64,000 nucleotides of DNA from GCF_053078305.1 NZ_CP166879.1, one strand, 5' to 3'; shown: positions 46,755 through 48,068, numbered from the stretch's first letter. Translations and numbers: made by a program. The notes: generated from the letters alone by a model not told the origin.

Positions 46755-47645
46755 ATGATCAAGAAGACAACGGAAATTGATGCCATCTTGTTAAATCTCA
46801 ATAAGGCTATCGATGCCCACTACCAGTGGCTGGTGAGTATGTTTCACAGCGTGGTCGCGAGAGATGCCAGTAAGCCAGAAATAACGGATAACCATTCTTA
46901 TGGACTGTGCCAGTTTGGTCGGTGGATTGATCATCTGGGGCCACTCGATAACGATGAATTACCTTACGTTCGGCTAATGGATTCTGCCCATCAACATATG
47001 CATAACTGTGGTCGGGAATTAATGCTGGCTATTGTTGAAAATCACTGGCAGGACGCGCATTTCGCCGCTTTTCAGGAAGGGTTACTTTCTTTTACTGCGG
47101 CATTAACCGATTACAAAATTTATTTGCTGACAATCCGTAGCAATATGGATGTTTTGACGGGATTGCCGGGGCGTCGGGTTCTTGATGAATCCTTTGATCA
47201 TCAGTTACGCAACACTGAGCCTCTGAATCTTTATTTAATGTTGTTGGATATTGACCGATTTAAATTGGTTAATGATACCTACGGGCATTTAATCGGCGAT
47301 GTAGTATTACGCACCCTGGCAACTTACTTAGCCAGTTGGACGCGTGATTACGAAACGGTTTATCGCTACGGGGGCGAAGAATTTATCATTATTGTCAAAG
47401 CGGCTAATGATGAAGAAGCATGTCGTGCAGGTGTCAGAATTTGCCAGTTAGTCGATAACCATGCCATCACACATTCTGAAGGGCATATCAACATTACCGT
47501 GACAGCTGGTGTCAGTCGCGCATATCCTGAAGAGCCTCTGGATGTGGTCATTGGAAGAGCAGACCGGGCAATGTATGAGGGTAAGCAAACCGGAAGAAAT
47601 CGCTGCATGTTTATTGACGAACAAAATGTGATTAACCGAGTTTAA
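46755..47645 (+). CDS. dgcZ: Zinc-sensing diguanylate cyclase (CZB plus GGDEF)
   Basis: MIKKTTEID...; RYGGEEF active-site motif. Confidence 0.85.
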   Translation: MIKKTTEIDAILLNLNKAIDAHYQWLVSMFHSVVARDASKPEITDNHSYGLCQFGRWIDHLGPLDNDELPYVRLMDSAHQHMHNCGRELMLAIVENHWQDAHFAAFQEGLLSFTAALTDYKIYLLTIRSNMDVLTGLPGRRVLDESFDHQLRNTEPLNLYLMLLDIDRFKLVNDTYGHLIGDVVLRTLATYLASWTRDYETVYRYGGEEFIIIVKAANDEEACRAGVRICQLVDNHAITHSEGHINITVTAGVSRAYPEEPLDVVIGRADRAMYEGKQTGRNRCMFIDEQNVINRV

Positions 47646-47655
47646 GCTCCGTTTA
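47639..47655 (+). promoter_or_regulatory. Putative PhoP box (direct repeat GTTTA-N6-GTTTA)
   Basis: aGTTTAagctcCGTTTA immediately upstream of the mgrR region. Confidence 0.45.
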
Positions 47656-47671
47656 ACATTCATTGAGAAAA

Positions 47672-47790
47672 CTGATGCTACTGTGTCAACGATCCGTTAT
47701 CAGTGCAGGAAAATGCCTGTTAGCGTAAAAGCAAAACACAAATCTATCCATGCAAGCATTCACCGCCGGTTTACTGGCGGTTTTTTTTTT
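47672..47790 (+). ncRNA. mgrR: MgrR small RNA (PhoP-dependent), approximate 5' end
   Basis: Intergenic dgcZ-mgtS location, PhoP box upstream, strong intrinsic terminator (8-bp stem plus T10) at 47762-47790. Confidence 0.55.
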
Positions 47791-47855
47791 CGCCGTCATA
47801 AAAATCAGGCCCCTTGTACACAACTGTAACAAGGGGCCGGTTAGGTGAGGGATTA

Positions 47856-47951
47856 TCTCCGTTCATTAGTCATCCCATTTGTGGCTGAAATACGCGGCCA
47901 GAAAACCAGAAAATAAAATTATTCCCAGTACGGCCATAAAAACATTCATAT
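47856..47951 (-). CDS. mgtS: Small membrane protein MgtS (31 aa)
   Basis: Translates exactly to MLGNMNVFMAVLGIILFSGFLAAYFSHKWDD. Confidence 0.85.
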
Positions 47952-48068
47952 TACCCAGCATTATTTGCCTCCGTTTATGGTGTGGTGTGTTTCCTCGCTT
48001 ACCTTAATTTTCATCTCAATGAGAAAGATATTAGCAGAGGTTATCTAAACAAAGGCTGAATCAGGCGA

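What the first reader, a model, noticed from the sequence alone, without database searches (positions are those of the whole stretch)
47639..47960. PhoP-type direct repeat upstream of the mgrR sRNA, convergent with the 31-aa mgtS gene
GTTTA-N6-GTTTA lies at the expected promoter position for an sRNA ending at a strong terminator (47762-47790); mgtS translates exactly to the known 31-aa peptide. The small gene and sRNA are easily missed by ORF-based annotation.
Basis: partly seen in the sequence, partly recalled or inferred. Interest (0 to 1): 0.25.

Follow-up and report, generated by a model that had tools for sequence, protein, structure and literature searches.

The report
Known E. coli mgrR–mgtT–mgtS magnesium-stress locus

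Summary
GTTTAAGCTCCGTTTA (47640-47655) is the only GTTTA-N6-GTTTA in the 64 kb (0.03 expected). It lies upstream of a 100-nt RNA (47691-47790) that matches Rfam STnc560 at 276 bits. That RNA equals the annotated K-12 mgrR gene apart from one SNP and two extra T in the terminator tail. mgtS (47961→47866) encodes the exact 31-aa MgtS.

Two refinements:
- **PhoP box position.** About 75 enterobacterial mgrR promoters conserve the downstream GTTTA (47650-55) plus a degenerate third half-site, CATTGA (47661-66). This pair sits 12 bp upstream of an extended -10 (TGcTACTGT), the same layout as the mgtS promoter.
- **A missed gene.** mgtT (47866→47771) starts in the mgtS stop codon (TAATG) and runs antisense into the MgrR terminator. 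The T10 tract here is rare: T8 in about 4,600 E. coli genomes, T9 in about 200, T10 in one. It shortens MgtT to 31 aa with a different C-terminus.

Everything else is published biology. Novelty: already known. Interest: low.

The parts
46749..47645 (+). dgcZ (ydeH) diguanylate cyclase gene. Its last codon and stop (GTT TAA, 47640-47645) supply the upstream GTTTA of the repeat.
   Evidence: ORF; NCBIfam NF007380 at 518 bits; annotated dgcZ in K-12 and O104:H4.
47639..47644 (+). It is lineage-specific.
   Evidence: In the fixed 11-bp register it is a perfect GTTTA in 4 of 79 promoters. These are three E. coli sequences (K-12, O104:H4 and the window) and E. whittamii.
47650..47655 (+). It is near-invariant across Enterobacteriaceae.
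   Evidence: GTTTA is 5/5 in 76 of 79 promoters. In the unconstrained MAFFT alignment the GTTTA block lines up in nearly all enterobacterial rows. The 2-bit columns are partly by construction, because this half-site was used to anchor the promoters.
47661..47666 (+). PhoP half-site 3 (CATTGA, -30 to -25). It is degenerate but conserved, and sits 12 bp upstream of the -10 hexamer.
   Evidence: Variants are CATTGA, CGTTGA, CATTGG, AGTTGA, TATTTA and CGTTTA. TT at -28/-27 is invariant and A at -25 is 84%, although these columns were not used for anchoring.
47676..47684 (+). Extended -10 of the mgrR promoter: TGcTACTGT (hexamer TACTGT at -12 to -7).
   Evidence: TGnTAnnnT is conserved in all 75 anchored promoters. 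T at -7 is 100% although it was not constrained. The consensus sigma-70 scan finds no -35/-10 pair here, consistent with an activator-dependent promoter.
47691..47790 (+). MgrR small RNA, 100 nt here and 98 nt in K-12. It has a 5' stem-loop at 47695-47725 and an A-rich stretch at about 47726-47742.
   Evidence: Alignment to the annotated K-12 mgrR; Rfam RF01407 at 276 bits; fold of -25.9 kcal/mol, z -2.6.
47745..47758 (+). MgrR target-pairing region U55-A68 (UAUCCAUGCAAGCA).
   Evidence: Identical to K-12. U55-A68 is given as the region that pairs with regulated mRNAs in PMC6239178.
47762..47790 (+). MgrR intrinsic terminator: stem-loop 47762-47781 plus a T10 tract at 47781-47790.
   Evidence: The stem is conserved, with G-C/A-U swaps at two pairs, in 34 species.
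47771..47866 (-). mgtT small ORF, 31 aa here (MNGDNPSPNRPLVTVVYKGPDFYDGEKKNRQ). Its ATG overlaps the mgtS stop (TAATG) and its last 20 nt are antisense to the MgrR 3' end.
   Evidence: K-12 mgtT (b4775) is 34 aa, ending ...GEKKPPVNRR. PGAP annotates mgtT as 'frameshifted' in T10 and T9 genomes.
47808..47838 (-). Hairpin on the mgtS strand (GGCCCCUUGU...ACAAGGGGCC) followed by UGAUUUUUAU. It is the likely mgtS terminator and lies inside the mgtT ORF.
   Evidence: Fold (z -3.0). The scan missed it. This is probably because the stem is interrupted, so the exact-stem reading leaves an 11-nt loop above the scan's 8-nt limit.
47866..47961 (-). mgtS (yneM), encoding the 31-aa inner-membrane protein MgtS. 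Shine-Dalgarno GGAGG at 47972-47968.
48028..48062 (-). mgtS promoter: PhoP box GATTCA-GCCTT-TGTTTA (48062-48046), a 12-nt spacer, and an extended -10 TGcTAATAT (48036-48028).
   Evidence: Sequence. RRTTCA-N5-YGTTTA followed by 12 nt and TAnnAT is conserved in 43 species. The box is recovered by the consensus search.

Best explanation
This is the E. coli dgcZ / mgrR / mgtT-mgtS locus, a pair of convergent PhoP-activated transcription units. In low Mg2+, phosphorylated PhoP binds tandem GTTTA-type half-sites spaced 11 bp apart, just upstream of an extended -10 promoter that has no -35 element. It recruits RNA polymerase to start at G47691. The product is the roughly 100-nt Hfq-dependent sRNA MgrR, which ends at the 47762-47790 terminator. 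MgrR uses its single-stranded region U55-A68 to base-pair with and repress mRNAs such as eptB and ygdQ. On the opposite strand, a second PhoP box (48062-48046), 12 bp from its own extended -10, drives mgtS. mgtS encodes the 31-aa membrane protein that stabilises the MgtA Mg2+ importer. The translationally overlapped mgtT follows it (TAATG). The family-wide core of the mgrR PhoP site is half-sites 2 and 3 (CGTTTA-acatt-CATTGA, -41 to -25). Shown here: sequence identity, anatomy and conservation. Taken from the literature: PhoP dependence, Hfq dependence, targets and MgtS function. Inferred: which pair of half-sites PhoP occupies.
For: - Rfam STnc560 hit at 276 bits.
- Base-for-base alignment to the annotated K-12 mgrR, mgtT, mgtS and dgcZ genes.
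- 5,415 of 5,426 complete E. coli genomes carry the region.
- MgtS is 31/31 identical to K-12 and passes NF033842.
- The terminator and fold are as expected.
- The exact repeat is unique in the window.
- Promoter footprint across 75 distinct enterobacterial promoters: TCGTTTA at -42..-36, TTcATTgA at -32..-25, TGnTAnnnT at -15..-7.
- The mgtS promoter has the same architecture.
- Literature: the PhoP box consensus lies at the -35 region (PMC7667037). mgrR and yneM are directly activated by PhoP (PMC3536696). The two genes are convergent and PhoPQ-dependent (10.1101/2021.06.30.450655). MgrR is 98 nt and its pairing region is known (PMC6239178). mgtS-mgtT is a PhoQP-dependent operon (PMC11429745; 10.1101/511675).
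Against: - Nothing contradicts the identification of the locus.
- For the sub-claim about half-sites: pair 2+3 has 4 mismatches to (T/G)GTTTA-N5-(T/G)GTTTA, whereas pair 1+2 has only 2, both at the degenerate first position.
- The primary paper that mapped the promoter (Moon & Gottesman 2009) was not available, so I could not check which box it names.
- The homologue set was collected by an exact 19-nt seed match. Seed invariance is therefore by construction, and divergent MgrR genes are missing.
- The T10 tail and the mgtT C-terminus differ from the reference and could be an assembly error.
Confidence: 0.95

Rival explanations
1. The functional PhoP box of E. coli mgrR is exactly the reader's perfect repeat, half-sites 1+2 at -52 to -36. 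PhoP would act from one helical turn further upstream, and CATTGA would be irrelevant.
For: It is the best consensus match: 2 mismatches, both at the degenerate first position. It is unique in the window. PhoP boxes further upstream than -35 are known, for example at ugd and mgtC (PMC7667037). It lies on the same face of the helix as the conserved box.
Against: Half-site 1 is absent in the fixed register from nearly all other genera that keep mgrR. Allowing a shift of one base either way, its best match to GTTTA averages 2.69 of 5, against a background of 1.97. Half-site 3 is conserved with invariant TT, although it was not used for anchoring. The 23-bp distance to the -10 differs from the 12 bp of the mgtS promoter. 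Half-site 1 coincides with the dgcZ GTT-TAA, so its sequence may be constrained by coding. In one cryptic Escherichia genome it reads GTTTT and the dgcZ stop is lost (L018).
Confidence: 0.3
2. The real transcript is the 214-nt unit described by Rfam STnc560 (47657-47872), not a ~100-nt MgrR.
For: The covariance model aligns end to end over 47657-47872.
Against: The model starts 34 nt upstream of the annotated +1, inside the promoter, where it covers half-site 3 and the -10. It also runs past a strong terminator through the antisense of mgtT to the mgtS stop. K-12 annotates 98 nt, and PMC6239178 works with a 98-nt MgrR. The 5' GATCC and the T tract are the conserved ends across species. The model boundaries look like a coverage-defined interval rather than an RNA.
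Confidence: 0.03
3. The locus is damaged in this strain: the T10 tract is a real mutation that disables mgtT and perhaps alters MgrR.
For: T10 occurs in 1 of about 5,400 E. coli records, against about 4,600 with T8 and about 200 with T9. It is the longest tract among 73 species. PGAP labels mgtT 'frameshifted' in T9 and T10 genomes. The neighbouring ftrA also carries a 4-nt frameshifting insertion.
Against: MgrR only gains two U in a tail that is already U-rich, and its stem and seed are untouched. MgtT keeps 28 of its residues and still ends in frame, at 31 aa. In K-12, deleting or overexpressing mgtT had no phenotype (PMC11429745). Homopolymer length is a common assembly error: one MG1655 assembly shows T9 where the reference has T8.
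Confidence: 0.15

Closest known systems
MgrR sRNA of E. coli K-12 (b4698; Rfam RF01407 STnc560)
   Same: Same genomic position (dgcZ-mgrR-mgtT-mgtS), same +1 by alignment, same 5' stem-loop, A-rich stretch, U55-A68 pairing region and terminator stem. 276 bits to the Rfam model.
   Different: C instead of T at +4 (C is also the Rfam consensus and the O104:H4 base). The terminator tail is T10 instead of T8, giving 100 nt instead of 98.
MgtS (YneM), 31-aa inner-membrane protein (b4599; NCBIfam NF033842)
   Same: 31/31 residues, the same Shine-Dalgarno sequence, and the same promoter with its PhoP box 12 bp from an extended -10.
   Different: Sequence upstream of the PhoP box diverges from K-12 at about 48062. 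This strain has ftrA (frameshifted here) and a rhodanese-like gene between mgtS and ydeE, an arrangement found in about 380 of 5,426 genomes.
MgtT (b4775), small protein found by ribosome profiling (Weaver et al. 2019)
   Same: The start codon overlaps the mgtS stop (TAATG). The first 28 residues are identical. The ORF contains the mgtS terminator hairpin and ends antisense to MgrR.
   Different: The C-terminus is ...KKNRQ (31 aa) instead of ...KKPPVNRR (34 aa), because the A tract is 10 rather than 8. A T9 allele would give 59 aa, read antisense across the whole of MgrR.
Canonical PhoP-activated promoters (PhoP box (T/G)GTTTA-N5-(T/G)GTTTA replacing the -35)
   Same: Direct GTTTA repeats with 11-bp periodicity, no -35 hexamer, and an extended -10. 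Half-sites 2+3 sit at the canonical distance.
   Different: E. coli mgrR has three half-sites in register. The best-matching pair (1+2) is one helical turn upstream of the canonical position, and the canonically placed pair (2+3) has a weak proximal half-site.

Membership tests
MgrR / Rfam RF01407 STnc560 | Score above the curated gathering threshold of the covariance model | tested here: met
   276.1 bits against a threshold of 55, E 4.9e-63, model positions 1-214 of 214.
MgrR / Rfam RF01407 STnc560 | Colinear with the annotated E. coli K-12 mgrR gene and in the same synteny (dgcZ upstream, mgtS convergent) | tested here: met
   one SNP and a 2-nt homopolymer difference over 98 nt. dgcZ ends 45 nt upstream of +1.
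MgrR / Rfam RF01407 STnc560 | Intact target-pairing region U55-A68 | tested here: met
   Identical to K-12. The region is defined in PMC6239178.
MgrR / Rfam RF01407 STnc560 | Rho-independent terminator with a U tail (Hfq-binding module) | tested here: met
MgrR / Rfam RF01407 STnc560 | Transcription depends on PhoQ/PhoP and low Mg2+; the RNA binds Hfq and represses eptB | not testable with these tools
   Taken from the literature only.
PhoP box | Match to (T/G)GTTTA-N5-(T/G)GTTTA with at most 2 mismatches | tested here: met
   AGTTTA-AGCTC-CGTTTA at 47639-47655 has 2 mismatches. The exact GTTTA-N6-GTTTA is unique in the window. The pair 47650-47666 has 4 mismatches and would fail this rule.
PhoP box | Located at the -35 region, about 12 bp upstream of the -10 hexamer | tested here: inconclusive
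The pair of half-sites 2+3 ends 12 bp before it, as in the mgtS promoter.
PhoP box | Conserved with the regulated gene across species | tested here: met
   Met for half-sites 2 and 3. Not met for half-site 1, which in the fixed register is a perfect GTTTA in only 4 of 79 promoters.
MgtS (NCBIfam NF033842) | Full-length match above the curated cut-off, with a start codon and Shine-Dalgarno sequence | tested here: met
   80.6 bits against a cut-off of 35, residues 1-31 of 31. 31/31 identity to K-12. GGAGG lies 6 nt upstream of the ATG.
MgtT (b4775) | ATG overlapping the mgtS stop, and the K-12 34-aa sequence | tested here: not met
   The TAATG overlap and residues 1-28 are met. The C-terminus and length are not: 31 aa ending ...KKNRQ, against 34 aa ending ...KKPPVNRR. 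No NCBIfam model matches.

The most novel reading that the evidence does not exclude
E. coli, alone among its relatives apart from E. whittamii, has turned the last codon and stop of dgcZ into a third, perfect PhoP half-site. PhoP could then bind mgrR in either of two overlapping registers, which might explain why mgrR responds at only moderately low Mg2+. Separately, one T tract serves both as the MgrR Hfq-binding tail and as mgtT coding sequence. Slippage in it (T8, T9, T10) switches MgtT between 34-, 59- and 31-aa forms.
Probability: 0.25. Interest if true: 0.3.

Novelty: already known. Interest (0 to 1): 0.1.

Why it matters
The finding adds little new biology. MgrR (2009), MgtS (2008-2017) and MgtT (2019) are published and annotated in RefSeq E. 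coli genomes. Its value is as a positive control: a reader working from raw sequence recovered an sRNA and a 31-codon gene that ORF-based callers miss.

Two side results are small but usable:
- A comparative footprint of the mgrR promoter relocates the conserved PhoP box by one helical turn relative to the obvious perfect repeat.
- A census shows that the terminator T tract shared by mgrR and mgtT is length-polymorphic, or error-prone, in assemblies. This is why PGAP often flags mgtT as frameshifted.

Tried and rejected
- **Papers not held.** The primary papers (Moon & Gottesman 2009 PMC2841474, Wang 2017 PMC5465934, Yin 2019 PMC6351178, Moon 2013 PMC3765083) were not available. Searches for 'mgrR promoter' and for STnc560 with MgrR found nothing. 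I therefore could not check which half-sites the original authors boxed. The equivalence of STnc560 and MgrR rests on the coordinate overlap with the K-12 annotation.
- **A -35 reading rejected.** TTGAGA (47663-47668) matches TTGACA 5/6 but lies only 10 nt from the -10, so it is not a -35 element.
- **A + strand ORF rejected.** The ORF 47750-47848 (32 aa, hydrophobic) starts at the ATG inside the MgrR seed. It has no Shine-Dalgarno sequence and would need read-through of the MgrR terminator.
- **No 5' stem consensus.** RNAalifold on 34 species recovered only the terminator. The 5' stem-loop is too variable or misaligned for a consensus.
- **A faulty count.** The T-run counts printed came from a faulty regular expression and should be ignored. 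Searches give the correct lengths.
- **Chance matches.** Six of the 84 genome-contig loci (Caldithrix, Atopobium, two Moraxella, a Mycoplasmataceae MAG and a gammaproteobacterial MAG) lack the promoter and terminator context in the alignment. I treated them as chance matches and excluded them.

Full report
**What is there.** The stretch 47639-47960 reads, on the + strand, as follows. The last codon and stop of a 298-aa GGDEF protein come first (46749-47645). Then comes GTTTAAGCTCCGTTTA (47640-47655) and about 35 nt of promoter. A structured ~100-nt region follows, ending in a G+C hairpin and ten T (47762-47790). On the - strand there is a 31-codon ORF at 47961→47866. The exact pattern GTTTA-N6-GTTTA occurs once in the 64 kb on either strand, against 0.03 expected. 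The terminator is the only one the scan reports in 47300-48300.

**Identification.** A gathering-threshold scan of all Rfam families gives RF01407 STnc560 at 47657-47872 (+), 276 bits, E 5e-63. A megablast of 47600-48000 finds the region in 5,415 of 5,426 complete E. coli genomes, annotated dgcZ, mgtT and mgtS. In K-12 MG1655 the annotation is:
- mgtS (b4599);
- mgtT (b4775, overlapping the mgtS stop by one base);
- the ncRNA mgrR (b4698, 98 nt, opposite strand, overlapping the mgtT 3' end by 29 nt);
- dgcZ.

The three-way alignment and the K-12 mgrR sequence place MgrR +1 at window G47691. They show only two differences within the RNA: C for T at +4, and T10 for T8 in the tail. The MgrR fold has a 5' stem-loop, an open A-rich middle that contains the published pairing region U55-A68, and the terminator (PMC6239178). 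MgtS is 31/31 identical to K-12 and is a full-length NF033842 hit. The upstream protein is DgcZ (NF007380).

**Function, from the literature.**
- mgrR and yneM (mgtS) are among the genes directly activated by PhoP (PMC3536696).
- MgrR is Hfq-dependent and represses eptB and ygdQ (PMC6239178; PMC4651636).
- MgtS raises levels of MgtA, the Mg2+ importer it interacts with.
- The PhoP box consensus is (T/G)GTTTA-N5-(T/G)GTTTA, usually at the -35 region with up to 2 mismatches, though some boxes lie further upstream (PMC7667037).

**Refinement 1: where the conserved PhoP box is.** I scanned one genome per species for the MgrR seed AAATCTATCCATGCAAGCA. This returned 84 loci, about 78 of them Enterobacteriaceae from some 20 genera. 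An unconstrained MAFFT alignment of the upstream regions and a fixed-offset extraction from the -10 agree on four points:
- The half-site at window 47650-55 is GTTTA in 76 of 79 promoters.
- A second half-site exactly 5 nt downstream (window CATTGA, 47661-66) is conserved. Elsewhere it reads CGTTGA, CATTGG, AGTTGA, TATTTA or CGTTTA. TT at -28/-27 is invariant, although these columns were not used for anchoring.
- 12 nt further on lies an invariant extended -10, TGnTAnnnT.
Allowing a shift of one base either way, its match to GTTTA averages 2.69 of 5, against 1.97 in the far-upstream background.

In Lelliottia and one unnamed genus the perfect GTTTA-N6-GTTTA falls on half-sites 2+3 instead. The mgtS promoter, aligned across 43 species, has the same layout: RRTTCA-N5-YGTTTA, 12 nt, TAnnAT. 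In the window this is 48062-48046 and 48033-48028.

So E. coli mgrR carries three half-sites in 11-bp register: AGTTTA-agctc-CGTTTA-acatt-CATTGA. The conserved, canonically placed box is 2+3 (-41 to -25). The best consensus match is 1+2 (-52 to -36). Half-site 1 is made of the dgcZ codons GTT-TAA, and in a cryptic Escherichia genome it reads GTTTT with the dgcZ stop lost (L018). Which pair PhoP occupies in E. coli cannot be settled from sequence. I favour 2+3 as the ancestral core, with 1 as an added, possibly affinity-raising site.

**Refinement 2: mgtT and the shared T tract.** In the window it runs 47866→47771. Its ATG overlaps the mgtS TAA (TAATG). It contains the hairpin 47808-47838 followed by UGAUUUUUAU, which looks like the mgtS terminator. 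Its last 20 nt are antisense to the MgrR terminator. MgtT was found by ribosome profiling and tagging (10.1101/511675). It is co-transcribed with mgtS under PhoQP control, is not membrane-bound, and has no deletion or overexpression phenotype (PMC11429745).

Because the MgrR T tract is an A tract in mgtT, its length sets the MgtT C-terminus:
- A8 gives 34 aa, ending ...KKPPVNRR.
- A9 gives 59 aa, read antisense through the whole of MgrR.
- A10, as here, gives 31 aa, ending ...KKNRQ.

Exact-length queries show T8 in about 4,608 E. coli records, T9 in about 198 and T10 in one. Another 62-63 records are only partly covered, and about 550 differ elsewhere in the query. One MG1655 assembly shows T9 where the reference has T8, so part of this variation is assembly error. 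Among 73 species the tract is 8 (42 species) or 9 (27), and 10 occurs only in the window.

Across genera the TAATG/TGATG overlap and the N-terminus MNGDNP..NRPL recur. The length varies from 7 to more than 45 aa. In the window the codons for RPL and KGP lie in the two arms of the hairpin. MgtT therefore looks weakly constrained as a protein.

**Context.** The window comes from an E. coli of the minority (about 380 of 5,426 genomes) that carries ftrA and a rhodanese-like gene between mgtS and ydeE. Sequence similarity to K-12 ends at about 48062, the outer edge of the mgtS PhoP box. E. whittamii shares the window's upstream sequence, so this arrangement is probably ancestral. The nearest complete genome (TUM13936) differs over 47450-50550 by one SNP, T9 against T10, and a 4-nt AGCA insertion at 48687-48690 that frameshifts ftrA.

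**Verdict.** The locus is textbook E. coli biology. The only additions are the comparative placement of the PhoP box, the missed mgtT gene, and the rare T10 allele.

Noticed in passing
It overlaps the mgtS stop (TAATG), contains the mgtS terminator hairpin, and ends antisense to the MgrR terminator. It is 31 aa here, against 34 aa in K-12.
   Followed up: yes
window 47781-47790: The T10 homopolymer is both the MgrR U tail and mgtT coding sequence. T8 is the norm (about 4,600 genomes), T9 occurs in about 200 and T10 in one. One MG1655 assembly has T9, so some of this variation is sequencing error.
   Followed up: yes
window 48069-49065 (-), insertion at 48687-48690: ftrA (a GlxA/AraC-type regulator) is split into two overlapping ORFs by a 4-nt AGCA insertion relative to the intact 972-nt gene of strain TUM13936. 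ftrA and a rhodanese-like gene (49139-49534) lie between mgtS and ydeE in only about 380 of 5,426 E. coli genomes. K-12 lacks both.
   Followed up: partly
window 35129-35287 (+) and ORF 35276-35416 (+): An Rfam sok antitoxin hit just above threshold (63.5 bits against 59) is followed by a 46-aa ORF whose sequence (...SLCEFRFRIAGAEIAAFL...) resembles, from memory, the Hok toxin motif. It sits between a 1,172-aa ORF (31559-35077) and a 577-aa ORF with collagen-like Gly-X-Y repeats (35559-37292). These look like lambdoid tail genes, so this is probably a hok/sok module inside a prophage.
   Followed up: partly
L014 (Enterobacteriaceae bacterium RIT691), matches at 1438-1456 and 3032-3050: There are two MgrR copies 1.6 kb apart in one genome. 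One has the conserved PhoP box and promoter. The other has a different upstream region with no PhoP box, and mgtS lies next to it.
   Followed up: no
L018 (Escherichia coli SCPM-O-B-8794), mgrR upstream region: Half-site 1 reads GTTTT, which removes the dgcZ TAA stop. The dgcZ frame would then run on to the TGA inside half-site 3 (CAT TGA).
   Followed up: no
L085 (labelled Chryseobacterium sp. 18061): It carries a typical enterobacterial mgrR-mgtS locus nearly identical to that of L060 (Citrobacter sp. 18056, same project). This is probably a contaminated or mislabelled assembly.
   Followed up: no
window 47657-47872: The Rfam STnc560 model (214 nt) is much wider than MgrR (98-100 nt). It includes 34 nt of promoter and 82 nt downstream of the terminator, so its coordinates should not be read as the RNA's ends.
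   Followed up: yes
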